Shown: piece after piece, positions 5,626 through 63,292 of the stretch
Position numbering within the stretch: the first letter of the stretch is position 1
Layout: each line of letters opens with the position of its first letter
NCBI GenBank assembly: GCA_964561085.1
Contig: CAZLNP010000003.1
Coordinates: 72,310-136,309, forward strand
Direction: 5' to 3'
Source: an uncultured Candidatus Saccharibacteria bacterium
GTDB taxonomy: Bacteria; Patescibacteriota; Doudnabacteria; UBA920
Length of the DNA: 64,000 bases
Position numbers and translations under genes: made by a program
The notes under the pieces: model-generated
Seen by the model: the letters and a program-made list of their open reading frames with translations, nothing else
The model's database searches: none
Told to the model about the DNA's origin: nothing

Positions 5626-6912
5626 TTATTCAATCCCCGGCACAGGAAAACCTAAAGAAAACTCTTTGACTTCCTGTTTAATTTTTTCGTGTAGGCCAGT
5701 GTCTTCAGGGTTTTTCAAAACTTGCACCATCCAATCAGCAACCTTTACCATATCTTCTTCTTTGGCACCGCGCGTTGTGATTGCAGGAGTTCCTAATCGA
5801 ATACCGCTCGGGTCCATCGGGCTACGAGTATCATCTGCTATCATATTCATATTTAAAGTAATTCCAACTGTATCTAACAACTCCTGAGCTTGTTTACCAG
5901 TAACATTCCATGATTTTACAACATCAACAAGAATTAAATGATTACTAGTGCCACCAGTAATTAAATGGCCGCCGCGTGCAATAAGTTCTTCCGCTAACTT
6001 TGAAGCGTTCTTGATTACTTGAGCCGAGTAATCTTGAAACTCGGGTCTAAGCGCTTCGCCAAAAGCCACTGCCTTTGCAGCAATGTTATTCATATGAGGT
6101 CCACCTTGAAGACCAGGGAAAACAGATTTATCAATTTTCTTGCCAAGTTCTTCAGCACGAGGTCCAGCGCACATAATCATTCCGCCGCGTGGACCACGCA
6201 AAGTTTTGTGAGTAGTGGTTGTAATAATATCGAAGCCATCATCAAAAGGATTGCGAAGCTGACCGCCAGCAATTAAACCAGCAATGTGCGCTGCATCCAT
6301 CATAGTAATTGCACCGACTTCATCAGCTATAGATTTCATCTTGGCGTAATCAATTTCTCTTGGGTACGCAGAAAACCCTGCGAGAATTAATTTTGGTTTT
6401 TCTCGCAAAGCAGTTTCACGCAGAGCATCGTAATCAATTTCACCAGTAGTAATATCTTTCATGCCATAGCGGACAAAGTTATACAACTTTGCCATGGCTG
6501 TAACAGGATGTCCGTGAGTTAAATGACCACCATGAGAAAGATCCATTCCAAGCACTGTATCTCCTGGTTGAAGCAAAGCAAAATACACCGCCACATTTGC
6601 AGGTGCACCACTTAACGGTTGTACATTAGCGTAGTCAGCTTTAAAAAGCTGTTTTGCGCGATCTATCGCTAATTGCTCAATTACATCGGTGTTTTCCTGG
6701 CCACCGTAATAACGCTTCCCAGGATAGCCTTCAGAATATTTATTAGTAAAAACTGTCCCCAAAGCTTCCAAAACTGCTGCGGAAACGTAATTTTCTGATG
6801 GAATCATCTCGATTCCCTCTTTCTGACGAAGCATTTCGTTGCGTAAACTGTCGTAAACGGTTTTATCTGACTTTTCTAGATTTTCGTAATTCATATATTT
6901 TAATCTTAACAA
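5626..6912 (-). CDS. glyA: Serine hydroxymethyltransferase
   Basis: 428 aa; LIPSENY, PLP-lysine region TTTTHKTLRGPRGG. Confidence 0.92.
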   Translation of the reverse strand: MLRLKYMNYENLEKSDKTVYDSLRNEMLRQKEGIEMIPSENYVSAAVLEALGTVFTNKYSEGYPGKRYYGGQENTDVIEQLAIDRAKQLFKADYANVQPLSGAPANVAVYFALLQPGDTVLGMDLSHGGHLTHGHPVTAMAKLYNFVRYGMKDITTGEIDYDALRETALREKPKLILAGFSAYPREIDYAKMKSIADEVGAITMMDAAHIAGLIAGGQLRNPFDDGFDIITTTTHKTLRGPRGGMIMCAGPRAEELGKKIDKSVFPGLQGGPHMNNIAAKAVAFGEALRPEFQDYSAQVIKNASKLAEELIARGGHLITGGTSNHLILVDVVKSWNVTGKQAQELLDTVGITLNMNMIADDTRSPMDPSGIRLGTPAITTRGAKEEDMVKVADWMVQVLKNPEDTGLHEKIKQEVKEFSLGFPVPGIE

Positions 6913-15013: not shown

Positions 15014-16054
15014 TTAAACGTTAGGTTGTATTTCTAAGTCTTTTTCTAATTGAGGCGCTTTTTCCTGGAAAAGCTCATGGATAACCACAGTAATAGCTCC
15101 TGCTAGAGGCACAGCCAGAAGTAGCCCTAAGATGCCCGCCAGCTTAAACCCAACCAGCAGCGCCAGCAATACAACCAACGGTGATGTGCCAACAGTCTTT
15201 TCCATCACTTTTGGAACTAATACATAACCTTCAGTTTTTTGAATAATTATATAAAGAATAATAACTCCAACTACAAGCGCTGGACTTTGGATTAAAGCAA
15301 AGAATACCGCAGGAATCGCAGCAAGGAAAGGACCAACATAAGGCACAATTTCTAATAGCCCAGCGATGAGCGCTAAGAACAATGCATACTTTACTCCAAG
15401 AATTGAAAGTCCAATATAGGTGAGAGTGAAAATAAATACACTCAGAATGAACTGCCCAACTACCCAAAGACCCATCTTGCGTTGAATTTTTTCTATTAAA
15501 TTCATTACCACTCTCTGGTGTGGGGCTGGGACAAGATCACGAATAAAATGCTTCATACCACGATCTGCAGCTACTAAGTAAAAAGAAACTACTAGAACTG
15601 TAATTACTGCAAACAAACCATTAAACAAACCTACTGTTCTACTGAAAATTTCACTAGTTCCCTCTCCTCCAGAGAACAATGAATGAACTATTGCCGTTAA
15701 ATCTGCCCCGCCGAAGAATGATGCAATTGTAGGATATCTTACTTGGAAATCAGCACTGTATTGAGGGAGGTTATCTGAAAGAACACGGAACTGTTCTGTA
15801 GCAAGTGGAGCCATTAATGCAACCAGCCCACCGATGAAAGCGATGACGATTACATAAGCACCAAGCACACTCACTGACCGAGGTATTTTCCAACGATTTA
15901 AATAATCAACCATTGGCTCCATCGCTGACGCTATTACAAGTGAAAGTAAAATTACTACTACGATATCTCGCACTACCCATAAAAACGCCAATGCCAACAA
16001 CACTGCCACGACTCTTAATATAACTTTTGTTGAATAATCTAATTGAAAGTTCAT
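15014..16054 (-). CDS. AI-2E family transporter (PerM/YdiK-like)
   Basis: 346 aa, 8 TM architecture typical of AI-2E family. Confidence 0.7.
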   Translation of the reverse strand: MNFQLDYSTKVILRVVAVLLALAFLWVVRDIVVVILLSLVIASAMEPMVDYLNRWKIPRSVSVLGAYVIVIAFIGGLVALMAPLATEQFRVLSDNLPQYSADFQVRYPTIASFFGGADLTAIVHSLFSGGEGTSEIFSRTVGLFNGLFAVITVLVVSFYLVAADRGMKHFIRDLVPAPHQRVVMNLIEKIQRKMGLWVVGQFILSVFIFTLTYIGLSILGVKYALFLALIAGLLEIVPYVGPFLAAIPAVFFALIQSPALVVGVIILYIIIQKTEGYVLVPKVMEKTVGTSPLVVLLALLVGFKLAGILGLLLAVPLAGAITVVIHELFQEKAPQLEKDLEIQPNV

Positions 16055-19811: not shown

Positions 19812-21203
19812 TTACAATCGAGTACTAATGTAATTCACTAAGTCATCAATATTAATACGTACTTGCTGGGCAGTGTCACGGTCGCGAACTGTGACTGTGT
19901 TATCTTCAAGGGTATCGAAGTCAACGGTAATGCCAAACGGTGTACCAATTTCATCTTGGCTGTAATAACGTTTTCCAACGTTACCACGATCATCCCACGC
20001 CACCATAAAATGCTTACTAAGTTCTGCAAAAATACCACGAGCTTTTTCTACAAGCTCTGGCTTGTTCTTTAACAACGGGAAAATGGCTGCTTTGTACGGT
20101 GCGAGTTTTGGAGGAAGTGCTAGCCAAACGCGCTTGCTGTCACCTTCTCCTTCTTCTTTGTAATGGTCAACCAAAACCGCTAAGAAAGAACGGTCCACGC
20201 CCCAAGTTGGTTCAATTACGTGTGGTACATACTTTTCGTTTGTCTGAGGGTCAACATAAGAAAGATCTTGTCCTGATGCTTTAATATGATTTTGTAAATC
20301 AAAATCTCCTCTGTACGCCAAACCATAAAGTTCTTTTCTACCAAATGGGAAATCGTATTCAAAGTCTAAGGTACGTTTGCTGTAGTGAGCGCGGTCTTCG
20401 GCAGGAACTTCAAGTTCATGAACTTGCGTCATGTCTAACTGTAAATCATCACGCATCCATTTAATCATTTCCTCTTTCCAGCTTTCAAAGACATCGTTCC
20501 AGTCAGAATCTTGTTTTGGAACTGGAATAAAGTATTCGATTTCCATTTGTTCAAACTCGCGGGTACGGAACACAAAGTTTCCTGGAGTAATTTCATTACG
20601 GAAAGCTTTCCCCTGCTGAGCAATTCCAAATGGGATTTGTTTGCGAGAGGTTGTCTGCACATTCTTAAATTGCACGAACATTGCCTGCGCTGTTTCGGGA
20701 CGGAAGTATGCAACGTTCGCTGCTTCTTCTGCAGGACCTAAGAAAGTTTTTAGCATTAGGTTAAACTTTTTCGGATCTCCCAATACGTTTCCTTTTGGAC
20801 TTTTCAAATTTAACTCTTTAACCTTTGCTGCCATTTTATCTAGATCCATACCTACGACATCTACACCAGCTTCTTCGAGCAAATGGTCTAAGCGGTAACG
20901 TTCATGAGTAACACTATCTTCAATTAAAGGATCTGAGAAAGTTGCAACGTGCCCACTAGCTTCCCAAACTTTTGGATTCATTACCAAAGCCGCATCGATA
21001 CCGACCATGTCAGGACGCTGTTGCACAAAGCGTTTCCACCAAAGCTGTTTAATATTATTCTTTAATTCAACACCCAAAGGACCGTAATCCCAAGAGTTTG
21101 CTAGCCCACCATAAATTTCCGACCCTGGGTACACGTACCCACGACGCTTGGCTAAACTAACAATTTTATCCATTTTCTCTGGTGCTATATTTTCTTTTGA
21201 CAT
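19812..21203 (-). CDS. glyQS: Glycyl-tRNA synthetase (dimeric class II)
   Basis: 463 aa; N-terminus RRGYVYPGSEIYGGLANSWDYGPLG characteristic of GlyRS. Confidence 0.9.
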   Translation of the reverse strand: MSKENIAPEKMDKIVSLAKRRGYVYPGSEIYGGLANSWDYGPLGVELKNNIKQLWWKRFVQQRPDMVGIDAALVMNPKVWEASGHVATFSDPLIEDSVTHERYRLDHLLEEAGVDVVGMDLDKMAAKVKELNLKSPKGNVLGDPKKFNLMLKTFLGPAEEAANVAYFRPETAQAMFVQFKNVQTTSRKQIPFGIAQQGKAFRNEITPGNFVFRTREFEQMEIEYFIPVPKQDSDWNDVFESWKEEMIKWMRDDLQLDMTQVHELEVPAEDRAHYSKRTLDFEYDFPFGRKELYGLAYRGDFDLQNHIKASGQDLSYVDPQTNEKYVPHVIEPTWGVDRSFLAVLVDHYKEEGEGDSKRVWLALPPKLAPYKAAIFPLLKNKPELVEKARGIFAELSKHFMVAWDDRGNVGKRYYSQDEIGTPFGITVDFDTLEDNTVTVRDRDTAQQVRINIDDLVNYISTRL

Positions 21204-22584: not shown

Positions 22585-23802
22585 CTAATCATTAGTGCTT
22601 TTTGCCAATCCTTTAGGTGGAGTTAAATCTTTGAAGTCATTTAACATATCATCGAAGTAATCAAACTCAATGGCTTTACGGATTTTATCCATCAAATTCA
22701 AATAAAAACGAAGGTTATGCATAGTTGCCAAGCGAGCACCAAGCATTTCATCACTTTTAATTAAATGGTTAACATAAGCTCGAGTATGATTCAAACACGC
22801 ATAACAATTACAACTTGAGTCAATTGGAGTGAAGTCCTCGGCATACTGTGCATTACGCACATCGATGGTTTCATAAGCTTCTTTGCCGTCTTCTGTACGT
22901 GCAGATATATATAGACGGCCATGACGAGCTTCGCGCATTGGGATGACGCAATCAAAAGTGTCGCAACCTTGCCCCACTGCTTGAACAATATCAAATGGAG
23001 TTCCAACTCCAAGCAAATGTTTAGGTGCTGTTTCAGGCAAATACGGAATTGCGTAACTAACCGCTTTCATCATTTCTTCGTGAGGTTCACCAACAGCGAC
23101 TCCGCCAATAGCAAAACCTTCGAAACCAAGTTCCACCATGTTTTCTGCAGATTGTTTACGCAGATCTTCAAAGCTCGCACCTTGAACAATCCCCCATAAC
23201 TTTTGGCCAGGGTTAATCGGATCGCCATGATCCATAATTCTTTTATGCTCGGCAACAGCGCGTTCAGCCCATCGCTTAGTCAACTCGATAGATTCTTTGC
23301 TGCGTTTATGCTCAAATGGGAAACCAGGAAAATCGTCTAAGATCAAACAGATGTCGCTACCCAAGTTCGCTTGAATGTCGATTGATTTTTCAGGTGAAAG
23401 AATTTCTTGTTTACCGTCCATATCGAATTGGAATAGCACACCCGCTTCTAACACTTTGCGCATCTTAGCTAAAGAGTAAACTTGGAAACCACCAGAGTCA
23501 GTAAAGATCGGTCCTTTCCAGTTCATGAATTTATGTAAACCACCGGCTTTGTAAATTAACGCATCGCCTGGACGCTGCCATAAGTGATACGTATTAGCGA
23601 GCACCATAGTCGCACCCCAGAACTTAATTTCTTCACTGGTTACAGTTTTAATAGTTCCTTTAGTGCCGATAGGTAAAAACTGCGGTGTAGTTACATCGCC
23701 ATGAGCAGTATGAATAATACCCGTGCGTGCACGGGTGCCATCAACTTTTTTAGTTATTTCAAAATATTTTTCTGACTTGTTTTCTAAATTATTTTCTGAC
23801 AT
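22585..23802 (-). CDS. tgt: Queuine/tRNA-guanine transglycosylase
   Basis: 405 aa; FTDSGGFQ, zinc site CxCxxC...H near C-terminus. Confidence 0.9.
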   Translation of the reverse strand: MSENNLENKSEKYFEITKKVDGTRARTGIIHTAHGDVTTPQFLPIGTKGTIKTVTSEEIKFWGATMVLANTYHLWQRPGDALIYKAGGLHKFMNWKGPIFTDSGGFQVYSLAKMRKVLEAGVLFQFDMDGKQEILSPEKSIDIQANLGSDICLILDDFPGFPFEHKRSKESIELTKRWAERAVAEHKRIMDHGDPINPGQKLWGIVQGASFEDLRKQSAENMVELGFEGFAIGGVAVGEPHEEMMKAVSYAIPYLPETAPKHLLGVGTPFDIVQAVGQGCDTFDCVIPMREARHGRLYISARTEDGKEAYETIDVRNAQYAEDFTPIDSSCNCYACLNHTRAYVNHLIKSDEMLGARLATMHNLRFYLNLMDKIRKAIEFDYFDDMLNDFKDLTPPKGLAKSTND

Positions 23803-38001: not shown

Positions 38002-39639
38002 ATGGATCTATCATCCCTGAAACAAAATTTTAAAGGTGAAATAACAGAGCAAGAACAAGATATTGAACATTACAGTCGTGATGCCAGTATCTTTCAAATT
38101 GCCCCGCAGGCAATTGTGTTTCCAAAAGATGTAGCCGACGTAGAGTCGCTTGTTAAGTTTGCCGTTGAGCAGAAAGCTACACAGCCTAATATATCTCTAA
38201 CCCCTCGTGGGGGCGGTACTGATATGACCGGTGGAAGTATCAATGACTCAATTATCTTAGACACAACTAAGCACCTTAATGTTATCTCTGAGCAAACAGA
38301 TACGAGTGTGAAAACCGAATCTGGAGTAATGTTCCGAGATTTGGAAGTAAAGCTCACAGCAAAAAACAGAATGATGCCAGCCTACCCTGTATCAAAAGCT
38401 TGGGTATCTGTAGGTGGAATGACCGGCAATAACTGTGGCGGTGAAAAAACTTTCAAATACGGCCAAGCAAAAGACTTCGTTGAAGAACTTGAAGTTGTGT
38501 TAGGAGATGGAAACTCATACATAATCAAGCCATTGAACGAATCTGAATTGCAAACCAAAATGGCTTTGCAAAACTTTGAAGGAAGTTTCTATCGAGAAAT
38601 TTACAGACTAGTGACAGATAACGCGCGCCTATTACACGATGCAAAACCTACTACTTCTAAAAATTCATCAGGTTACTACCTATGGGACATATGGGATGGT
38701 AAAACTTTTGATCTAACTCAATTGTTTGTTGGCTCACAAGGCACCCTTGGAATTATTACAAAAATCAAATGGCGCATCGTTCCAATACAACGCCACACTC
38801 GCCTATTAATTTTCTTCTTAAAGGATTTGAAACAATTAGGTCAAATTGTTACGCATGTAAACGAGCTAAGCCCGGAGAGTTTTGAAATTTTTGATAAGCA
38901 CACTTTCAAACTTGCACTTCGCTACCTGCCAGAGATTGTCAGCAAAATGAAAGGCTCTCGCCTAAAAATGTTCTGGCAGTTCCTACCAGAACTTTGGATG
39001 ACCATTAAAGGTGGCCTACCGGAAGTAGTTCTCCTTGCTGAATTCGTAGGTGATGACGAAGAATCTGTTAGCAAACAAGTAGCGGATGCTGAGCACAATA
39101 TCCGATCCCATTTTAATTTACCTACACACATCTCACGCAGTCACGCTGAATCACAGAAGTACTGGACTATTCGTCGCGAAAGCTATAACTTGCTGCGCCA
39201 ACATAACGCACGCAAAATTTCCGCACCATTCATTGAAGATATTGTCGTGCACCCAGATCAACTTCCTGAATTTATGCCGAGACTAGATGCAATTCTAGCT
39301 AAGTATCCTGACTTCGTTTACACGATTGCCGGCCACGCTGGTGATGCTAATTTCCATATCATTCCCCTTGTTGATGTATCAGAAGAAAAGCATCGCAAGC
39401 AAATCATTACCATGAGCGATGAAGTCTTTAAGTTAGTTAAAGAATATGCTGGATCAATGGCTGGTGAGCACAATGACGGCCTGGTACGCGGGACATTCTT
39501 GCCATTCATGTTCGGCGATAAAGTTTTTGAGCTATTTAAAAGGACCAAACAAATATTTGATCCTTTAAACATCTTCAACCCTCACAAAAAAACTGAGGCA
39601 GATTTAACTTTTTACGCAGAACACGTTAGACATAACTAA
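38002..39639 (+). CDS. FAD-linked oxidase (GlcD/D-lactate dehydrogenase-like, PCMH FAD-binding domain)
   Basis: TPRGGGTDMTGGS FAD-binding motif; 545 aa. Confidence 0.7.
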   Translation: MDLSSLKQNFKGEITEQEQDIEHYSRDASIFQIAPQAIVFPKDVADVESLVKFAVEQKATQPNISLTPRGGGTDMTGGSINDSIILDTTKHLNVISEQTDTSVKTESGVMFRDLEVKLTAKNRMMPAYPVSKAWVSVGGMTGNNCGGEKTFKYGQAKDFVEELEVVLGDGNSYIIKPLNESELQTKMALQNFEGSFYREIYRLVTDNARLLHDAKPTTSKNSSGYYLWDIWDGKTFDLTQLFVGSQGTLGIITKIKWRIVPIQRHTRLLIFFLKDLKQLGQIVTHVNELSPESFEIFDKHTFKLALRYLPEIVSKMKGSRLKMFWQFLPELWMTIKGGLPEVVLLAEFVGDDEESVSKQVADAEHNIRSHFNLPTHISRSHAESQKYWTIRRESYNLLRQHNARKISAPFIEDIVVHPDQLPEFMPRLDAILAKYPDFVYTIAGHAGDANFHIIPLVDVSEEKHRKQIITMSDEVFKLVKEYAGSMAGEHNDGLVRGTFLPFMFGDKVFELFKRTKQIFDPLNIFNPHKKTEADLTFYAEHVRHN

Positions 39640-43668: not shown

Positions 43669-44304
43669 TTAGGCGTTTTTTATTTTATCTATCATTTCTG
43701 CATAGGCAGAATTGAGTCGTTCCATTAATTCGTCGTCCTTACTAAATTCAGAGGCTTTATCAGTAACTCTGGTTGCAAGCTCAAACGGTAAGCCAATTTC
43801 CACCAACAGCGGATGGTAGCTCTCGATGCTTAATTCATTAGGATTAGAATAGGAGTTTTGGATTAAAGCATAAAATTTATCAATTAACTCACGACTCTCT
43901 CCATTTTGGAGTTCAGCAAATTTTACGTCTGGCAGAAACTCATTTATTTTAAAATTTGCAATGTCATTTAAGTCTTGCAGTATTTTTACTGCAGTAAGTG
44001 AAACCCAATCATCATCCCCCGTGTGCATGTTGTCATACGAAAATAGTGATGAAAACTTTTCAATGTATATCTGCGATTGGATTTCATCACAAGCCAAATG
44101 AGAGTGCCAACCCTTAGCGAAATCACTTATTGTGTTAATGTCCCATTGATCAAAATCCGAGGGGTGAGTTAGATTTCTCGGAGTTTTTGTGATGTATCGC
44201 GTATCAGGATATACCGCCCCAGCAATATAACTTTGCAGGTTTGAAGGGCTATAGTAGTCCTGAAGATCAATCGCAAATTTAATGTGTGTCCCTTGTAATG
44301 CCAT
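43669..44304 (-). CDS. Hypothetical protein (possible zinc-dependent PLC/P1-nuclease-like fold)
   Basis: N-terminal GTHIKFA...YPDTRY...HSHLACDE His/Asp pattern; weak. Confidence 0.35.
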   Translation of the reverse strand: MALQGTHIKFAIDLQDYYSPSNLQSYIAGAVYPDTRYITKTPRNLTHPSDFDQWDINTISDFAKGWHSHLACDEIQSQIYIEKFSSLFSYDNMHTGDDDWVSLTAVKILQDLNDIANFKINEFLPDVKFAELQNGESRELIDKFYALIQNSYSNPNELSIESYHPLLVEIGLPFELATRVTDKASEFSKDDELMERLNSAYAEMIDKIKNA

Positions 44305-53649: not shown

Positions 53650-54672
53650 CTATATAATGGTAGGTTCAACCTCCAATTCAATTCCAAACGCCTCTTTTAC
53701 TTTCATTTTAGTGTCATTCACAACCGATTCAAGCTCCGGGAACGTAGCACCACCTCTATTTGTCATTACTAACGCATTATTAAAATAGAACTGTAACTTT
53801 CCAAACTGTTGGCCTTTCAACCCCAAAGTTTCTAGCATCCATCCTGCACCAATCTTATATCCACCACCTTCAATCGGAAAAGCAATTATATTAGGATAGA
53901 CCTGCTTCAACTTTTCATATTGGCTTTCATCAATGAAGGGATTTTTGAAAAACGATCCCACTGAGGCGATTTCTTTTGGATCAGGCAATTTAACATTTCT
54001 TATATCTATGATTGCTTGTCGAATTTGCGAAAGAGTAGGATTAGAAATTCCCTTCTCTTCAAAATATTTTTTAACTCCTGGGTAATCTGGAGCAACGCCA
54101 GGTTCTTTTGAAAGCCTAATTGTAATGGAAGCAATAATATACTTGTCTTTCGCTTTTTGTTTAAATAAGCTGTCTCTATAACTAAACTTGCATTGCTCTC
54201 TAGAAAATTCTCGCATTTCGCCAGTCGCCACTTCATACGCCTCTAAAGAAATTAAAACGTCCGCAATTTCGGTACCATATGCACCAACATTTTGAATCGG
54301 GGTTGCACCAGCAGTTCCAGGAATCCACGACATTGCCTCTATTCCCCACAAACCCATTTCTACAGATCGCTTTACTACATTGTCCCAAATTTCACCAGCA
54401 CCAATTTTTATAATCGCGTCATTTTCGTTTTCTTCAGCAACTTCAAACCCTGGCAATTCAAGTTTTAATACTACGGCATCAAAAACATCCGATTGGCTAA
54501 AAATAATGTTTGACCCTGAACCTAAAATAAATAGAAAAAGATTTTTGCTCTTTGCAAAGTTGCATCCGTACTTCAAGTCTTCCATGTTTTTTGCCACAGC
54601 AAAATAGCGCGCAGTTGGGCCCATGCGGAAAGTTGTATGTTGAGAAATATCTACAAATTCTTCAATTTCCAT
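53650..54672 (-). CDS. murB: UDP-N-acetylenolpyruvoylglucosamine reductase
   Basis: FAD-binding HTTFRMGPTARYF...ILGSGSNIIF; start placed at MEIEEF. Confidence 0.8.
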   Translation of the reverse strand: MEIEEFVDISQHTTFRMGPTARYFAVAKNMEDLKYGCNFAKSKNLFLFILGSGSNIIFSQSDVFDAVVLKLELPGFEVAEENENDAIIKIGAGEIWDNVVKRSVEMGLWGIEAMSWIPGTAGATPIQNVGAYGTEIADVLISLEAYEVATGEMREFSREQCKFSYRDSLFKQKAKDKYIIASITIRLSKEPGVAPDYPGVKKYFEEKGISNPTLSQIRQAIIDIRNVKLPDPKEIASVGSFFKNPFIDESQYEKLKQVYPNIIAFPIEGGGYKIGAGWMLETLGLKGQQFGKLQFYFNNALVMTNRGGATFPELESVVNDTKMKVKEAFGIELEVEPTII

Positions 54673-54681
54673 ATTTGCATG

Positions 54682-54701
54682 ATATATCACATGTGATATA
54701 T
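54682..54701. promoter_or_regulatory. Perfect 20-bp palindrome ATATATCACATGTGATATAT in murB/HTH-murA divergent region (candidate operator)
   Basis: Read directly; lies 10 nt upstream of the HTH-murA start codon and 10 nt from the murB start. Confidence 0.55.
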
Positions 54702-54710
54702 AATCAACCA

Positions 54711-56237
54711 ATGACAAACTCACAATCTAAATCGGATCAAACAAAGATTGGTTCGTTTATTAAGTCCTTACGCGAGCAACGAGGCTTAACCCAAGAAGAC
54801 TTTGCCAAAGCATTGTCTACCTCACAAAGCGCCGTAGCTCGTATGGAAAAAGGTGATCAAAACATGACCTTAGAGCAACTCGCTAAAATTAGCGATGTGC
54901 TTGATCACAAGATCGTTTCGATTTCGGATTCTGTTGATTTTAAAATTCAAGGTGGTCGTAAATTGTCTGGTACTATCCAGACTAATAGCTCGAAGAATGG
55001 TGCGATTGGTTTAATTGCAGCTGCTCTAATTAACAAAAATACTACTGCTCTTAGCGGTATTCCTCAGATCGAGGAAGTGCATCGCATGACCGAAGCTTTG
55101 CAAAGCATTGGCGTAAAGCTACGATGGACCGGTCGAAACACTTTAGAAGTTACCCCTCCCAAAAAATACACATTCAAAAAAATTGATGAAAAAGCTTTTC
55201 GCAAAATTCGCGTCGGGCTATATCTTTTTGGCGCGCTAGGAAAGCAATTAGATACCTTTGCTATCCCCCACTCTGGTGGCTGTAAAATGGGTAAGCGCAC
55301 TATATCTGCTCATGAAGGTGCGCTAAAAGCGTTGGGCTTGAAGATCAAAACTACAGATACTCACTACGAAGTCAGTCATGGCAAACTAGCAGGTGCAGAC
55401 ATTACCATGCTTGAAGCCGGAGATACCAGCGCAATTAACGCTCTACTTCTGGCTGCACAAATTCCCCAAAAGACTATCATCAGATTCGTACCACCAAACT
55501 ACCAAGTACAGGAAGTTTGTTTTTTCCTACAAAAACTTGGCGTACAAATTGAAGGAGTTGGTACAACTACTCTAACAGTTAAAGGCAAAGAAAATTTTAA
55601 CAAAGCAATCTCTTACGAAAACAGTGAAGATCCGATTGAATCAATGATGTTTATTTCTGCGGCAATTATGACTCGCTCTAAATTAACCATCACACGCTGC
55701 CCAATAGATTTTTTGCGTTTGGAACTAGAGAAACTAAAAGGGATGGGTCAAAAGTTTATTATTTCTAAACCTTACTTAGCAAAAAATGGTTTTACAGAAT
55801 TAGTAGACTTGCAAGTTATCCCTTCAAAGCTAAAAGCGCTATCGGACAAAATTCATTCTCTTCCCTATCCAGGGATTAACACTGACAATCTACCGTTCTT
55901 TGTCCCGATTGCTACTCAAGCAGATGGCACTACTTTAATCCATGATTGGATGTGGGAAAATCGTGCAATTTACTTCACAGAGCTAAACAGACTTGGTGCG
56001 AACATCCACTTAGCAGATCCGCATCGTGCTTTCATCGAAGGGCCTACAAAATTAACTGGCGCACAAGTAGTTTGTCCTCCGGCTCTTCGCCCGGCTATGA
56101 TTATCTTAATTGCCATGCTTGGTGCAGAAGGGACATCAACTCTTAGAAACGTTTACTCCATTCGCCGGGGCTACGAAGAAATCGCTGAGCGATTAAACTC
56201 AATCGGTGCTAAGATTACAGTAATCACCAGCGTTTAG
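54711..56237 (+). CDS. murA: UDP-N-acetylglucosamine 1-carboxyvinyltransferase fused to N-terminal XRE-type HTH domain
   Basis: HTH: IGSFIKSLREQRGLTQEDFAKALSTSQSAVARMEKG; MurA: FKIQGGRKLSGTIQTNSSKNGAIGLIAAAL, active-site HSGGCKMGKRT, C-terminal IRRGYEEIAERL; start at MTNSQS (longer ORF would overlap murB). Confidence 0.8.
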   Translation: MTNSQSKSDQTKIGSFIKSLREQRGLTQEDFAKALSTSQSAVARMEKGDQNMTLEQLAKISDVLDHKIVSISDSVDFKIQGGRKLSGTIQTNSSKNGAIGLIAAALINKNTTALSGIPQIEEVHRMTEALQSIGVKLRWTGRNTLEVTPPKKYTFKKIDEKAFRKIRVGLYLFGALGKQLDTFAIPHSGGCKMGKRTISAHEGALKALGLKIKTTDTHYEVSHGKLAGADITMLEAGDTSAINALLLAAQIPQKTIIRFVPPNYQVQEVCFFLQKLGVQIEGVGTTTLTVKGKENFNKAISYENSEDPIESMMFISAAIMTRSKLTITRCPIDFLRLELEKLKGMGQKFIISKPYLAKNGFTELVDLQVIPSKLKALSDKIHSLPYPGINTDNLPFFVPIATQADGTTLIHDWMWENRAIYFTELNRLGANIHLADPHRAFIEGPTKLTGAQVVCPPALRPAMIILIAMLGAEGTSTLRNVYSIRRGYEEIAERLNSIGAKITVITSV

Positions 56238-56260: not shown

Positions 56261-56995
56261 ATGAAAATCATTTACGCCCTCATCATAATACTTGCAGTAT
56301 ATTCCATCGGTACATTCATTAGACTCAGATACACCCTATCGGTCGCGAATCTACCTAATATAGTGCAGCAAGATAAAACCTTTGCTAATCAACAAAGTGC
56401 TTCGGACGGAAACAAAACCCTACGATACATCGCCGCTGGCGATAGCACTGCTGCAGGTGAGGGCGCAAGTAGCGTACAGAAAACTTATACCTACAGAGTA
56501 GATGAGTTCCTATCCCAGAGGAACACGGTTGAATACAGGAATGTCGGTGTTCGTGGTGCTCAAACTCAAGACATCCTAGATGATCAATTAGAAAAAATTA
56601 TTGCATTTAACCCCGACGTGATTACACTATCTGTTGGAGCGAATGATGTTACTCATCTTAAGAGTTCAAATAAGGTAGTTACCAACTTCAAGACTATTAT
56701 TGAAACTCTACAGGCTAAAACAAGCGCACAAATTTATATCACAGATGTGCCAATTCTAGATCAAGTTACTCTGCTCCCATATCCATACAAAAAATACTTA
56801 GGTCATCAAATTAAAAAAATAAACCCGCAAATCCTTTTGTTAGAAAATGAGCGGGTTCATATTATAGACATATATAATTTTGGGTGGAACACCTATCCAG
56901 ATGTAAATATCACTTTCGCGAAAGACGGCTTCCATCCGAGCGATGAAGGATATAATAACTGGACCAACGCTTTTCTATCTAGAATCCAAGATTAA
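56261..56995 (+). CDS. SGNH/GDSL-family hydrolase (secreted/membrane-anchored)
   Basis: IAAGDSTAAGEG (GDS block), GANDV, DGFHPS blocks. Confidence 0.7.
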   Translation: MKIIYALIIILAVYSIGTFIRLRYTLSVANLPNIVQQDKTFANQQSASDGNKTLRYIAAGDSTAAGEGASSVQKTYTYRVDEFLSQRNTVEYRNVGVRGAQTQDILDDQLEKIIAFNPDVITLSVGANDVTHLKSSNKVVTNFKTIIETLQAKTSAQIYITDVPILDQVTLLPYPYKKYLGHQIKKINPQILLLENERVHIIDIYNFGWNTYPDVNITFAKDGFHPSDEGYNNWTNAFLSRIQD

Positions 56996-58240: not shown

Positions 58241-59278
58241 TTAAGACAAATACTCCTTAAAATCATTACGGTACATATCAACTAAGGCTACGAAAATTGC
58301 TAGGAGAATTGGTCCAATTAAGAAACCAAGTATACCGAAGAATTGTAATCCTCCAATAACAGCTAACAGCACTAATACTGGGTGAAGCTTTGTAGCCTGG
58401 CCAACTAATTTTGGTCCGAGGAAATTGTCTACTAAACCAACAGCAACCGCTCCCCAAATTAGCAAACCAATGGCTTGAGGGGTTTGGCCAGTAACAAATA
58501 AATATATTACAGCTGGTACTAATGAAAGTGCAGTACCAACGTTAGGAACTAATGCCGCCAAGACTGTAAACAAACCCCAAAGGAAAGGTTCTGGAATACC
58601 AAAAATTAAAAATCCAATCGTCGCTATTACACCTTGTGCTAAAGCAATTAAGAATTGACCTTTTACAACCCCATTTACAGCAGCAACGATTTTATCTATT
58701 AGTTTATTTTCATGAGCAGAAGAGATTGGTGAGATATCTTTTAAAACTTCCTTAATCTTAGTGCCATCTTTCAGTAAATAGTAAACGATGAAAAACAGCA
58801 TGAACGCTGAGATCACGAAACTGGCAATATTTGAAACAATACTAGAGAATGATGCGAACGCCTGTGAACTTAAACGACCAATGAAAGCATTGATGTCTGC
58901 GCTTAGGCTTTGAACAGTAGCTTGAGCTTGTTCCGGCAATGAAGAAATTATCTGGCTCTTATCTATTACTAATCCGCCATCTTTATATCTTTCATACAAA
59001 CCGCTGATTTCGTTATAAATTACTTGTCCGAAAAACCAAATCGGTACTGCAATAATCAGCAAAATAAGAACAACTGTTAATACGCTAGCGATGCTTGGAT
59101 ACTTTACTCTAGTTAACAATCTAACGTATATAGGGCGGAACAAAATAGCCAAAATCACACCCAGCGCCATTATGTTTACAAAGGGCTTAAAAATGAAAAG
59201 CACTAAAATAAACACTGCGAAGAATAAGATTAGAAAGCTAATTGTTTGAATGCGTTGTGATTTAGTCGTAGTGGCCAT
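58241..59278 (-). CDS. AI-2E family transporter (second copy in window)
   Basis: 345 aa, topology and conserved C-terminal G-rich TM like the 15014..16054 gene. Confidence 0.7.
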   Translation of the reverse strand: MATTTKSQRIQTISFLILFFAVFILVLFIFKPFVNIMALGVILAILFRPIYVRLLTRVKYPSIASVLTVVLILLIIAVPIWFFGQVIYNEISGLYERYKDGGLVIDKSQIISSLPEQAQATVQSLSADINAFIGRLSSQAFASFSSIVSNIASFVISAFMLFFIVYYLLKDGTKIKEVLKDISPISSAHENKLIDKIVAAVNGVVKGQFLIALAQGVIATIGFLIFGIPEPFLWGLFTVLAALVPNVGTALSLVPAVIYLFVTGQTPQAIGLLIWGAVAVGLVDNFLGPKLVGQATKLHPVLVLLAVIGGLQFFGILGFLIGPILLAIFVALVDMYRNDFKEYLS

Positions 59279-62350: not shown

Positions 62351-63292
62351 CTACATATCCGCAATAATCAAATCCAACACAACATGCGGAGGCATAGTAC
62401 CAGTTTTCATTTCACGGTCTAGATTCTCAAGTTTTAACAAAGCCTGTTTAACTTTCGGCGCTGTAAAGTTGCGCGATAGTTTCTTTAAAACATATAGTCG
62501 CCCACTCTTCCAACCAGTTAGTTTTAAGACGGCATCATCGGGCATGCGACGGTCATCTGCATCTATGACAATTAATAGACTCCGAAACTGATCACTTAAT
62601 AGTGCAACAACCTTAATAGCATTAGTTTTTTCGTCAGCTGTTTCAGTAGCAAAATATGTTTCCAGCATTTCTACTGCCAACTTTTTATTCTTTGTAGCAA
62701 TGGCATTTAGTAATGCGAAGATCCCGGCACCAGTGGAGTTCTCCACCAACAAAGCCACCATATCTTTAGTGACTACTTTACCCGCAGCATACTGCTTTAA
62801 CTTTTCAATTTCATTCTGAGCATCGGAGACATTTAAGGCTGAATCTTCATCCAAAAGTAGGGCGGAAGCTAAAGCAAATGCTGCGGCTTGATCAATCTTA
62901 ATATTATTTTCATTTGCGTATTTAACAATCCAATCAGTTGAACTGCGCGTTCCAATCGGAGCGCTCAGTTCAACGACCGAGACACGTTTGTCATTCAGAA
63001 ATTCTTTATTCGCGTTTATACGCTTGTCTAAAGAATCTTCTACTATATATACCTCAGCGGATTTATTTTCACCCAGCTTCTCCAAGATTTCTTCTAGGTC
63101 TAACTTCTTCCACAAATGGTCAAATACCACAATTTTTGGAGCACCAAAGAGTTGCTGCTCAAACATATGCTCAAGTTTTGGAATAATACTAGATTCAGTG
63201 AAAGTTTCTACTTCAGCCGAGCGTAGTTTTGCAGCTTTCTGTATATGTTGTTTTTTGGCCAAAACATTGGTACCAAGAAGTAAAGTAATCAT
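62351..63292 (-). CDS. holA: DNA polymerase III delta subunit-like
   Basis: 313 aa; overall clamp-loader delta architecture; weak motif support. Confidence 0.45.
   Translation of the reverse strand: MITLLLGTNVLAKKQHIQKAAKLRSAEVETFTESSIIPKLEHMFEQQLFGAPKIVVFDHLWKKLDLEEILEKLGENKSAEVYIVEDSLDKRINANKEFLNDKRVSVVELSAPIGTRSSTDWIVKYANENNIKIDQAAAFALASALLLDEDSALNVSDAQNEIEKLKQYAAGKVVTKDMVALLVENSTGAGIFALLNAIATKNKKLAVEMLETYFATETADEKTNAIKVVALLSDQFRSLLIVIDADDRRMPDDAVLKLTGWKSGRLYVLKKLSRNFTAPKVKQALLKLENLDREMKTGTMPPHVVLDLIIADM

What the first reader, a model, noticed from the sequence alone, without database searches (positions are those of the whole stretch)
54682..56237. MurA fused to an XRE-family HTH domain, with a perfect 20-bp palindromic operator in its own promoter region
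The first committed enzyme of peptidoglycan synthesis carries a ~70-aa N-terminal Cro/C1-type helix-turn-helix. The catalytic Cys (HSGGCKMG) and the rest of the EPT fold are intact. Ten nt upstream of its ATG, in the 38-bp divergent region shared with murB, lies the perfect palindrome ATATATCACATGTGATATAT. That has the size and symmetry of a dimeric HTH operator. This suggests direct transcriptional autoregulation of murA and murB by the enzyme itself, which would be an unusual enzyme/regulator fusion.
Basis: partly seen in the sequence, partly recalled or inferred. Interest (0 to 1): 0.65.

Follow-up and report, generated by a model that had tools for sequence, protein, structure and literature searches.

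The report
MurA enzyme fused to its repressor
In this candidate-phyla-radiation bacterium the first enzyme of cell-wall synthesis carries its own DNA-binding domain, and a palindrome conserved in front of cell-wall genes in at least 65 related genomes suggests that the enzyme represses its own pathway.

Summary
ORF 54711-56237 encodes one 508-aa protein: an XRE/Cro-C1 HTH (res 17-65) fused in frame to a MurA with intact catalytic residues. A perfect 20-bp palindrome (54682-54701) lies in the 38-bp gap shared with divergent murB.

The palindrome alone is weak evidence, since 9% of shuffled windows hold one as long. Conservation is the real evidence.
- All 80 best related genomes (Patescibacteria) have the same fusion.
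- 65 of 76 testable loci carry the 18-bp core TATATCAyATrTGATATA just upstream of the start. The rest of those loci shows about 470-fold fewer matches.
- Both half-sites persist where no divergent gene exists.
- Extra copies sit upstream of murC.
- Operator variants co-vary with substitutions in the recognition helix.
- The same palindrome occurs at Gp49-toxin/XRE-antitoxin modules whose HTH is homologous.
- Catalytically dead HTH-MurA paralogues sit behind the same operator, beside a separate unfused murA and other mur genes.

Best reading: a bifunctional enzyme/repressor that binds as a dimer over the -10 elements of leaderless murA and murB promoters. Binding, repression and any metabolite control are inferred, not shown. 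Seven literature searches found no description. I rate it a new variant of a known kind (BirA/PutA/NadR-like).

The parts
54711..56237 (+). HTH-MurA fusion gene (508 aa plus stop)
   Evidence: Single ORF. Pfam HTH_3 plus EPSP_synthase. NCBIfam MurA subfamily above cutoff. All 120 best homologues share the architecture.
54759..54905 (+). XRE/Cro-C1 helix-turn-helix domain (res 17-65). The whole N-module is res 1-76, 54711-54938.
   Evidence: Pfam HTH_3 E 6e-13. AF2 helices at 9-23, 28-34, 39-47 and 54-64. Nearest solved relatives are C.BclI, C.AhdI and HipB.
54819..54848 (+). Predicted recognition helix TSQSAVARME (res 37-46)
   Evidence: T37, Q39, S40, R44 and E46 are invariant in 22 relatives of 62-88% identity. 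Substitutions here co-vary with operator half-site changes.
54906..54938 (+). Conserved short linker DHKIVSISDSV (res 66-76), a possible dimerisation strand
   Evidence: S74 and D76 are invariant. pLDDT is below 50 at res 70-72 in the monomer model. The stand-alone antitoxin relatives end with a similar alternating hydrophobic stretch. The dimerisation role is inferred.
54939..56225 (+). MurA (enolpyruvyl transferase) body, res 77-505
   Evidence: Sequence match to solved MurA at E 1e-50. Foldseek TM 0.86-0.93 to solved MurA structures.
55281..55283 (+). Catalytic Cys191 codon (equivalent to E. coli Cys115)
   Evidence: The GGCKMGKRT loop aligns with GGCAIGQRP of solved MurA. C191 is invariant. 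232 of 254 full-length family members keep Cys at this position.
54682..54701 (.). Perfect 20-bp palindrome. The conserved 18-bp operator core TATATCACATGTGATATA is 54683-54700.
   Evidence: PWM score 27.6 bits, and it is the only site of at least 8 bits in the 64 kb. The motif is conserved in 73 of 79 related loci and about 470-fold enriched upstream of the gene.
54674..54679 (+). TTGCAT, a -35-like hexamer for the murA promoter (inferred)
   Evidence: Read from the sequence. TTG[AC][AC] lies within 12 nt upstream of the palindrome in 28 of 73 loci. L207 has a perfect TTGACA abutting the operator.
54694..54704 (+). TGATATATAAT, an extended -10-like element that overlaps the right operator arm. 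TATAAT ends 6 nt before the ATG, so the mRNA is probably leaderless (inferred).
   Evidence: other genes of the window show TGnTATAAT 6-8 nt before the ATG and no Shine-Dalgarno sequence. The palindrome-to-ATG distance is 8-12 nt in 50 of 73 loci.
54679..54707 (-). Promoter-like site for murB: TTGATT, 17 nt, TATCAT. Its -10 overlaps the left operator arm and ends 6 nt before the murB ATG.
   Evidence: Consensus scan.
53650..54672 (-). murB (UDP-N-acetylmuramate dehydrogenase), divergent partner that shares the operator
   Evidence: Pfam FAD_binding_4 plus MurB_C. NF000755 scores 334 bits, above its cutoff of 277. murB is divergent and adjacent in about 40 of 80 related loci.
56261..56995 (+). 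GDSL/SGNH hydrolase gene starting 24 nt after the murA stop, possibly co-transcribed (inferred, weak)
   Evidence: Pfam Lipase_GDSL_2 E 8e-24. No promoter or terminator was examined between the two genes.

Best explanation
HTH-MurA is a bifunctional enzyme and transcription repressor.

Enzyme. The C-terminal 430 residues are an active-looking MurA, the first committed step of peptidoglycan precursor synthesis.

DNA-binding module. The N-terminal XRE-type HTH most likely binds as a dimer to the 18-bp dyad TATATCAyATrTGATATA. In the window this dyad fills the space between a -35-like TTGCAT and the start codon. Its two arms coincide with the extended -10 elements of the divergent, apparently leaderless murA and murB promoters. 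A bound dimer should therefore exclude RNA polymerase from both.

Predicted effect. As MurA protein accumulates, transcription of murA and murB falls. In some lineages this also covers murC and a class IV aminotransferase (D-amino-acid aminotransferase-like) gene that lies downstream of murA or carries a site of its own. This is negative feedback on the early cytoplasmic Mur pathway.

Shown here (computationally):
- the fusion and its intact catalytic and HTH residues;
- the conservation, position and specificity of the dyad;
- co-variation between the dyad and the recognition helix;
- the occurrence of the dyad at other mur genes;
- enzyme-dead paralogues.

Inferred:
- actual DNA binding, dimerisation and the sign of regulation;
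- leaderless transcription;
- any modulation of DNA binding by UDP-GlcNAc, PEP or UDP-MurNAc through the MurA fold.
For: (1) Architecture. One ORF carries HTH_3 plus a MurA domain. All 120 best homologues and all 80 best genome loci share the fusion, and at least 584 GTDB species genomes encode relatives.

(2) HTH conservation. The recognition helix is nearly invariant across proteins of 62-88% identity. This implies a conserved target.

(3) Operator conservation. 73 of 79 loci have the dyad (at most 2 of 14 specified positions mismatched) within 150 bp upstream. Information content is about 2 bits at the 18 positions and about 0 in the flanks. With at most 1 mismatch, 65 of 76 loci have it upstream, against 7 hits in the other 618 kb and 0.05 in shuffles.

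(4) Not a generic promoter. It is the only site in the 64-kb window, although many other genes there have TGnTATAAT leaderless-type promoters.

(5) Not merely a bidirectional promoter. Both arms are kept in at least 11 loci whose upstream neighbour is co-directional and close.

(6) Coherent regulon. Of 12 extra sites in 647 kb, 6 lie 3-17 nt upstream of a MurC-like ligase gene, 2 lie at murB starts, and 1 lies upstream of a class IV aminotransferase gene.

(7) Protein-DNA co-variation.
- Helix QSS[IV]PRME occurs in 6 of 6 loci with TATCTCA....TGAGATA, in 6 of 10 with the half variant, and in 0 of 48 canonical loci.
- Helix TTQS goes with ..GCA....TGC.. operators in 4 of 4 fusions. Two of these were looked up afterwards as tests.

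(8) Independent context. An exact-motif scan of metagenomes returned about 30 of 120 sites at HTH-MurA genes. It also returned 12 at Gp49/RelE-type toxin genes, at least three of which are followed by an XRE gene with a similar recognition helix, plus small stand-alone HTH genes.

(9) Enzyme-dead paralogues. P0142, P0165, P0274, P0132 and P0214 keep the HTH helix but have lost the Cys loop and the R120/R397 equivalents. They sit behind the same operator. P0142, P0165 and P0274 lie next to an unfused Cys-containing murA, and all but P0132 lie beside other mur genes (murB, Mur ligases or ddl).

(10) Closest solved HTHs. C-proteins and HipB are dimeric autorepressors that bind palindromes (their biology is from established knowledge).
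Against: - No experiment was done. Binding, oligomeric state and the direction of regulation are all inferred.
- The right arm of the dyad is itself a good extended -10, so part of its conservation could reflect promoter function alone.
- MurA enzymes are generally described as monomers, and the AF2 monomer model says nothing about dimerisation.
- The co-varying loci belong to few clades, so the number of independent events is small and uncounted.
- TTQ-type helices in the antitoxin relatives occur with the canonical operator, so there is no simple recognition code.
- L012 and L017 carry only a displaced or imperfect site, which is included in the 73-of-79 count, and L073's lies about 130 bp upstream with 3 mismatches. 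In L014 and L046 the site lies next to murB, 190-360 bp from the start.
- The TIGR01072 MurA equivalog cutoff is not reached, so enzymatic identity rests on subfamily score, catalytic residues and context.
Confidence: 0.75

Rival explanations
1. The palindrome is only a symmetric, bidirectional extended -10 promoter for two divergent leaderless genes. The fused HTH does something else, such as binding other DNA or mediating a protein contact.
For: Each arm reads TGATATA(A/T)(T), an extended -10. Similar elements precede other genes in the window. murB is divergent in about half of the loci. The fixed 8-12 nt distance to the ATG fits a promoter.
Against: - The full dyad is unique in the 64 kb.
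- Both arms are kept in at least 11 loci with a co-directional upstream gene.
- The TGn base and the central 4 bp, which a promoter does not need, are conserved.
- The variant TGAGATA arms break the extended -10 register yet stay symmetric and track helix substitutions.
- In the toxin-antitoxin context the start codon lies inside the dyad, a different geometry.
Confidence: 0.07
2. A different, unlinked regulator binds the dyad, for example a stand-alone XRE antitoxin of the same subfamily. The HTH of MurA would then be vestigial or would act only as a dimerisation or partner-binding module.
For: Stand-alone HTH proteins with a similar recognition helix are associated with the identical palindrome. 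Cross-talk is conceivable.
Against: - The recognition helix of the fusion is under very strong conservation, and its substitutions track its own upstream operator.
- No such stand-alone gene lies near murA in the window or in the 80 loci.
- Enzyme-dead paralogues retain the HTH, which argues that the HTH is the functional part.
Confidence: 0.06
3. HTH-MurA binds the dyad but works as an activator or a ligand-dependent switch rather than a simple autorepressor.
For: The sign of regulation was not tested. The enzyme-dead paralogues suggest that the MurA fold serves as a sensor. Some XRE/C-proteins activate at one site and repress at another (established knowledge).
Against: The site overlaps the -10 and the region just upstream of the start on both strands. 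That position normally blocks RNA polymerase. No second, upstream activating site was seen in the window.
Confidence: 0.1
4. The palindrome acts at the RNA level, as a hairpin in a 5' leader or as a terminator of the upstream gene.
For: Symmetric compensatory changes in the two arms would also preserve a hairpin.
Against: - The predicted RNA hairpin is weak: -5.9 kcal/mol, z -0.85, and 42 of 200 shuffles fold as well.
- No Rfam family matches.
- The promoter geometry puts most of the dyad upstream of the likely start of transcription.
- The arm changes correlate with protein residues.
Confidence: 0.02

Closest known systems
Bifunctional enzyme/repressors with a fused DNA-binding domain ('trigger enzymes'): BirA (biotin ligase + wHTH), PutA (proline dehydrogenase + RHH), NadR (HTH + NMN adenylyltransferase)
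   Same: One polypeptide combines a pathway enzyme with an N-terminal DNA-binding domain. The operator lies in the promoters of the same pathway, which allows feedback by the enzyme itself. (The properties of BirA, PutA and NadR are from established knowledge.)
   Different: - The enzyme is MurA, an enolpyruvyl transferase, and the pathway is peptidoglycan precursor synthesis.
- The DNA-binding fold is an XRE/Cro-C1 HTH.
- Ligand control of DNA binding, which defines how BirA and PutA work, was not tested here.
- The family also contains enzyme-dead members next to a separate murA.
XRE-family HTH antitoxins of Gp49/RelE(HigB)-type toxin-antitoxin modules (HigA/HipB-like; NCBIfam TIGR03070 Y4mF family)
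   Same: The HTH is homologous (40-49% identity, with the same ..QS..AR.E.G.QN.T helix). The 18-bp palindrome at the promoter is identical. The likely mode is dimeric autorepression.
   Different: No toxin gene is adjacent in the window. The HTH is fused to a 430-aa enzyme rather than being a protein of about 100 aa. The controlled genes are mur genes.
Controller (C) proteins of restriction-modification systems (C.BclI, C.AhdI, C.Esp1396I)
   Same: These are the closest solved structures by sequence for the HTH (E 8e-6 to 2e-4). They are small dimeric XRE HTHs that bind palindromic operators overlapping their own promoter (established knowledge).
   Different: The genetic context is unrelated, they carry no enzyme fusion, and their operator sequences differ.
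XRE-HTH/shikimate kinase fusion (NCBIfam NF006015 / PRK08154, annotated 'anaerobic benzoate catabolism transcriptional regulator')
   Same: An N-terminal XRE HTH is fused to a metabolic enzyme fold. It gave a weak match to the HTH part (E 5e-7).
   Different: The enzyme fold and the pathway differ. The match does not reach the family cutoff (29 against 204 bits).
Canonical MurA and its known controls (ClpCP/ReoM-dependent proteolysis in Firmicutes; UDP-MurNAc feedback inhibition)
   Same: Same enzyme fold and catalytic residues. It serves the same need, to limit flux at the first committed step (established knowledge).
   Different: Control here is proposed to be transcriptional and exerted by the enzyme itself through a fused HTH. 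No solved MurA matched here includes the HTH module: all MurA hits begin at query residue 77 or later.

Membership tests
MurA (UDP-N-acetylglucosamine 1-carboxyvinyltransferase) | Two-domain enolpyruvyl transferase (EPT) fold | tested here: met
   Pfam EPSP_synthase matches profile positions 2-417 of 417, E 4e-43. The AF2 model has pLDDT 87 and TM 0.86-0.93 to solved MurA.
MurA (UDP-N-acetylglucosamine 1-carboxyvinyltransferase) | Catalytic loop Cys (E. coli C115) and R120, together with K22/N23, D305 and R397 equivalents | tested here: met
   C191, R196, K95/N96, D392 and R486 are aligned to solved MurA and invariant in 22 relatives.
MurA (UDP-N-acetylglucosamine 1-carboxyvinyltransferase) | Score above curated family cutoffs | tested here: inconclusive
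   Subfamily NF006873 scores 317, above 297. Equivalogs score below cutoff: TIGR01072 309 against 392.7, and NF009470 233 against 552. This is a divergent lineage-specific MurA.
MurA (UDP-N-acetylglucosamine 1-carboxyvinyltransferase) | Enolpyruvyl transfer from PEP to UDP-GlcNAc | not testable with these tools
   Supported only by the residues and by adjacency to murB.
XRE / Cro-C1 helix-turn-helix DNA-binding domains | HTH_3-type sequence profile and a compact helical bundle | tested here: met
   PF01381 scores 49 bits, above its cutoff of 23. Four helices are predicted at 9-23, 28-34, 39-47 and 54-64, with pLDDT 84-88 over residues 11-50 and lower (about 70) beyond.
XRE / Cro-C1 helix-turn-helix DNA-binding domains | Sequence-specific binding, usually as a dimer, to a dyad-symmetric operator | not testable with these tools
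   Indirect support comes from the conserved dyad and from helix-operator co-variation.
Bifunctional enzyme/repressors (BirA, PutA, NadR type) | Enzyme and DNA-binding domain in one polypeptide | tested here: met
Bifunctional enzyme/repressors (BirA, PutA, NadR type) | Operator in the promoters of its own gene or pathway | tested here: met
   The dyad occurs at murA and murB (window), at murC (6 loci), and at mur clusters of the enzyme-dead paralogues. This is comparative evidence, not biochemical.
Bifunctional enzyme/repressors (BirA, PutA, NadR type) | DNA binding switched by the enzyme's substrate, product or catalytic state | not testable with these tools
   Only suggested by retention of the MurA fold in catalytically dead HTH paralogues.
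Type II toxin-antitoxin antitoxin (HigA/HipB-like) | Adjacent cognate toxin gene in the same operon | tested here: not met
   The neighbours in the window are murB and a GDSL hydrolase. No Gp49/RelE gene is present.
Type II toxin-antitoxin antitoxin (HigA/HipB-like) | Small stand-alone HTH protein that autoregulates through a promoter palindrome | tested here: not met
   The HTH is homologous and the palindrome is identical, but the protein is a 508-aa enzyme fusion. The DNA-binding module works like an antitoxin's, but the protein is not a member of the family.

The most novel reading that the evidence does not exclude
The MurA fold acts as the effector-sensing module of a one-component regulator.
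- Binding of UDP-GlcNAc/PEP, or of the feedback ligand UDP-MurNAc, drives the known open/closed movement of MurA.
- That movement gates dimerisation or DNA binding of the closely tethered HTH.
- Transcription of the early Mur pathway in Patescibacteria would then be set directly by precursor levels.
- The catalytically dead HTH-MurA paralogues would be pure sensors derived from the bifunctional enzyme.
- The HTH-operator pair would have been captured from a Gp49/HigA-type toxin-antitoxin module.
Probability: 0.35. Interest if true: 0.85.

Novelty: new variant of a known kind. Interest (0 to 1): 0.72.

Why it matters
MurA is the first committed step of peptidoglycan synthesis and the target of fosfomycin. 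Its amount is tightly controlled in model bacteria, but by proteolysis and feedback inhibition rather than by a dedicated transcription factor.

If the enzyme represses murA, murB and murC itself, that would give:
- a simple self-contained homeostat for cell-wall precursor supply in ultra-small, regulator-poor candidate-phyla-radiation bacteria;
- a rare predicted regulator-operator pair for organisms that mostly cannot be cultured;
- a natural series from bifunctional enzyme to enzyme-dead regulator, which shows how a catalytic fold becomes a sensor domain.

The helix-operator co-variation makes specific predictions that can be tested by mutation. The proteins are currently annotated only as MurA, so the regulatory half is invisible in databases.

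Tried and rejected
- Palindrome significance alone. A 20-bp perfect palindrome occurs somewhere in 9% of shuffled windows, so I rejected it as sufficient evidence.
- Other copies in the window. A search for the 14-mer core with up to 3 mismatches gave chance-level results. A PWM scan found none. No regulon beyond murA and murB is visible in these 64 kb. The other large genes I checked are housekeeping genes, not mur genes, and there is no murC, dat or second murA in the window.
- RNA explanations. Rfam gave nothing relevant. The hairpin energy is not better than shuffles.
- Generic or bidirectional promoter. Rejected for the reasons given under the rival explanations.
- Strict sigma-70 scan. 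It finds the murB-side promoter but not a plus-strand one, because TTGCAT matches only 3 of 6 and the spacing is 19 nt to TATAAT. The murA promoter assignment therefore rests on the extended -10 and on relatives.
- Literature. Seven full-text searches combined MurA, carboxyvinyltransferase or enolpyruvyl transferase with helix-turn-helix, XRE, HTH, Patescibacteria, CPR, Parcubacteria, trigger enzyme, fusion or autoregulation. None found a description of this fusion.
- A simple recognition code. TTQS goes with ..GCA/TGC.. in the fusions but not in the antitoxin relatives.
- Not done. I did not run an HTH-only homologue search, because hits would be swamped by the fusion itself. Dimer or DNA-complex modelling is not possible with the tools.
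Full report
**1. What is in the window**

The region holds a single ORF, ATG 54711 to the stop at 56237, encoding 508 aa.
- Pfam finds an XRE/Cro-C1 HTH (HTH_3, res 17-65, E 6e-13). It also finds a full-length EPSP_synthase/MurA domain (res 80-495, E 4e-43).
- NCBIfam places the body in the MurA subfamily NF006873 (317 bits, cutoff 297). The stricter equivalog TIGR01072 is not reached (309 against 392.7).
- Alignment to solved MurA structures shows the catalytic loop GGC191KMGKR196 and K95/N96, D392, R418 and R486 in the expected places. All are invariant in relatives.
- An AlphaFold model (pLDDT 87) gives a four-helix N-module, a short low-confidence linker at res 65-75, and a MurA body that superposes on solved MurA with TM about 0.9.
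- Every solved MurA that matched aligns only from query residue 77 onward, so none covers the HTH module.
- murB lies divergently at 53650-54672. The shared intergenic region is 38 bp.
- That region contains the perfect 20-bp palindrome ATATATCACATGTGATATAT at 54682-54701.

**2. Is the palindrome more than chance?**

By itself, barely. It is the longest perfect palindrome in the 64 kb, but 26 of 300 Markov-1 shuffles of the window contain one at least as long. The argument has to come from relatives.

**3. The fusion is a conserved family**

- The 120 best database homologues (62-98% identity) all carry HTH plus EPSP_synthase domains. Where sources name them, they are called only 'UDP-N-acetylglucosamine 1-carboxyvinyltransferase'. 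They come from Patescibacteria: Paceibacterota, Zambryski-, Jorgensen-, Nomura-, Uhr-, Lipton-, Taylor-, Colwell- and Doudnabacteria.
- A scan of one genome per GTDB species found at least 584 genomes with relatives. The 80 best loci all cover the query from about residue 1-13 to 505-508.
- In most of them the frame opens only a few codons upstream of the start, so the HTH cannot be a separate gene.
- The recognition helix TSQSAVARME is almost invariant across these proteins.

**4. The palindrome is a conserved, discrete, specific element**

- In 73 of 79 loci an 18-bp dyad TATATCAyATrTGATATA lies within 150 bp upstream of the gene.
- The 18 positions carry 1.1-2 bits of information each (most about 2), and the flanks carry about 0.
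- With at most one mismatch in the 14 specified positions it occurs upstream in 65 of 76 loci. It occurs 7 times in the remaining 618 kb, about 470-fold less often per base. Shuffled upstream regions give 0.05 hits.
- Its end lies 8-12 nt from the start codon in 50 of 73 loci.

**5. Relation to the promoter**

- The right arm plus two bases reads TGATATAAT or a close variant, an extended -10.
- A TTG[AC][AC] -35-like element precedes the dyad in 28 of 73 loci. In L207 a perfect TTGACA abuts it.
- In the window only 11 of 42 genes have a Shine-Dalgarno-like sequence. Several show TGnTATAAT 6-8 nt before the ATG. Leaderless transcripts therefore seem common in this organism.
- The murA ATG lies 6 nt after TATAAT.
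- On the other strand a consensus scan finds TTGATT, 17 nt, TATCAT, ending 6 nt before the murB ATG.
- The dyad therefore overlaps the -10 elements of both divergent promoters, the classic position of a repressor.

**6. Why it is not just a symmetric promoter**

- The full dyad is unique in the window, although TGnTATAAT promoters are common there.
- Both arms are conserved in at least 11 loci whose upstream neighbour is a large co-directional gene ending less than 150 bp away. No leftward promoter is needed there.
- murB is the divergent neighbour in only about half of the loci.
- Positions that a promoter does not need, such as the base after TG and the central four bases, are conserved.
- In a second genetic context the start codon lies inside the dyad (section 9).

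**7. Regulon**

A position weight matrix found 12 further sites in 647 kb of related loci.
- Six lie 3-17 nt upstream of a 421-476-aa Mur ligase gene with the MurC-type N-domain.
- Two lie at murB starts.
- One lies upstream of a class IV (D-amino-acid-type) aminotransferase gene.
- The remaining three were not explained.

In L020 murC follows murB in the operator-controlled operon. In L015 and L034 the aminotransferase gene directly follows murA. The element is thus specific to early peptidoglycan precursor genes.

**8. Protein-DNA co-variation**

- All six loci with the symmetric variant TATCTCA....TGAGATA have the helix QSS[IV]PRME. So do six of ten loci with the half variant. None of 48 canonical loci does.
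- Two loci with TATAGCA....TGCTATA have TTQS instead of TSQS.
- I then looked up two further TTQS proteins as a test. P0076 has TATAGCGTATGTGCTATA. P0387 has TATTGCATATATGCTATA.
- A TSQP variant (P0085) keeps the canonical site.

These correlations involve few clades, and I have not counted independent events. Even so, they are what direct recognition by this helix predicts.

**9. Independent context: toxin-antitoxin modules**

- About 30 have it directly upstream of an HTH-MurA gene. Seven of these also have divergent murB.
- The next largest class is 12 Gp49/RelE-type toxin genes (PF05973). In most of them the ATG lies inside the dyad.
- At least three of those toxin genes are followed by an XRE HTH gene that is 36-45% identical to the MurA HTH over the aligned stretch. 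Its helix has the same ..Q.....R.E.G..N pattern.
- Small stand-alone HTH genes also occur next to the dyad, one with an identical TSQSAVARME helix.

The same HTH subfamily therefore goes with the same palindrome in an unrelated setting, one where autorepression by the HTH is the established mechanism. The closest solved HTHs by sequence are controller proteins and HipB, which are dimeric palindrome-binding autorepressors.

**10. Enzyme-dead paralogues**

A full HMMER search with residues 1-135 recovered more distant fusions.
- Several (P0131, P0132, P0142, P0165, P0177, P0194, P0214 and P0271-P0275) keep TSQSA[VI][AN]R[IM]E.G.QNL. They have lost the Cys loop and the R120/R397 equivalents.
- P0142 and P0165 sit divergently from operons that contain an unfused 438-aa MurA with a normal GGC loop, together with Mur ligases or murB. 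Downstream of them lie ddl (P0165) and Mur ligase genes.
- P0274 heads a cluster murD-ligase-ligase-murA-murB, with a murC-like gene downstream.
- P0214 follows murB and a relA/spoT gene.
- P0132 ends a NUDIX-nucleotidyltransferase operon.
- In each case the same dyad lies at the promoter.

A family member that has given up catalysis but kept the HTH, the operator and, in most cases, the mur neighbourhood argues strongly that regulation is a real function. It also suggests that the MurA fold serves as a sensor.

**11. Mechanism proposed**

HTH-MurA binds as a dimer to the dyad and blocks RNA polymerase at the leaderless murA and murB promoters. This gives negative autoregulation of the first steps of the pathway. 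Some lineages extend it to murC and the aminotransferase gene.
- Dimerisation may use the conserved KIVSIS strand after the last helix. Similar strands end the stand-alone relatives. From memory, HipB dimerises through such a strand. This step is inferred.
- Whether UDP-GlcNAc, PEP or UDP-MurNAc modulate binding is unknown. It is the most interesting open point.

**12. Novelty**

Enzyme-repressor fusions (BirA, PutA, NadR) and XRE autorepressors are both well known, so the principle is not new. A MurA-HTH fusion, its operator, its small Mur regulon and its enzyme-dead derivatives were not found in seven full-text literature searches. Databases name the proteins simply MurA. I rate it a new variant of a known kind, of real interest to cell-wall and CPR biologists. 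All functional claims still need biochemical tests.

Noticed in passing
window: upstream of 19812-21203(-), 22585-23802(-), 38002-39639(+), 43669-44304(-), 62351-63292(-) and others: Many genes have TGnTATAAT-like elements 6-8 nt before the ATG and no Shine-Dalgarno sequence. Only 11 of 42 genes have an SD-like motif. Leaderless mRNAs may be the norm in this organism.
   Followed up: partly
L206, L207-L209, L210, L211, L212 (proteins P0142, P0165, P0214, P0274, P0132): Catalytically dead HTH-MurA paralogues sit behind the same operator. In L206, L207-L209 and L211 they lie beside an unfused, Cys-containing murA and other mur genes. This looks like an enzyme-to-regulator series.
   Followed up: partly
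L106, L107, L133, L167, L169, L170, L189, L192 and others: Gp49/RelE-type toxin genes have their start codon inside the identical palindrome TATATCATATATGATATA. Where it was detected (L106, L167, L180), an XRE antitoxin gene homologous to the MurA HTH lies downstream. This is a possible evolutionary source of the HTH-operator pair.
   Followed up: partly
P0121 (1002 aa), P0129 (703 aa), P0163 (1923 aa), P0240 (5640 aa): These are large proteins with 6-11 tandem copies of an HTH similar to the MurA N-domain. Their function is unknown.
   Followed up: no
L207:6493-8082: A D-Ala-D-Ala ligase is fused to a peptidase C39-like domain, directly downstream of the enzyme-dead HTH-MurA paralogue.
   Followed up: no
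L210:3562-4983: A RelA/SpoT-family gene lies between murB and an enzyme-dead HTH-MurA gene. The operator overlaps the 3' end of the RelA/SpoT gene.
   Followed up: no
L115 (sites at 6129, 8485, 13370) and L121, same contig BNJT01002008.1; L109 and L157 (two sites 28 and 85 bp apart): These contigs carry several exact copies of the palindrome with no ORF of at least 60 aa starting nearby. They may be a repeat element or chance matches in AT-rich DNA.
   Followed up: no
window 56261-56995 (+): A GDSL/SGNH hydrolase gene starts 24 nt after the murA stop and may be co-transcribed. In other lineages this position is occupied by a class IV aminotransferase gene.
   Followed up: partly
window 15014-16054 (-) and 58241-59278 (-): Two AI-2E family transporter paralogues lie in the same 64 kb.
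   Followed up: no
window 20411-20426: The second-longest perfect palindrome, CAAGTTCATGAACTTG (16 bp), lies inside the class II tRNA synthetase gene. It is within the chance range.
   Followed up: no
family-wide: All 232 family members with an intact catalytic loop have Cys, never Asp, at the fosfomycin-reactive position. These Patescibacteria MurA enzymes are therefore predicted to be fosfomycin-sensitive.
   Followed up: no
L001-L080 record titles: Many TPA metagenome-assembled genomes that carry this Paceibacteria-type gene are titled 'Candidatus Saccharibacteria' or even 'Gammaproteobacteria'. These are probably coarse or wrong taxonomic labels.
   Followed up: no
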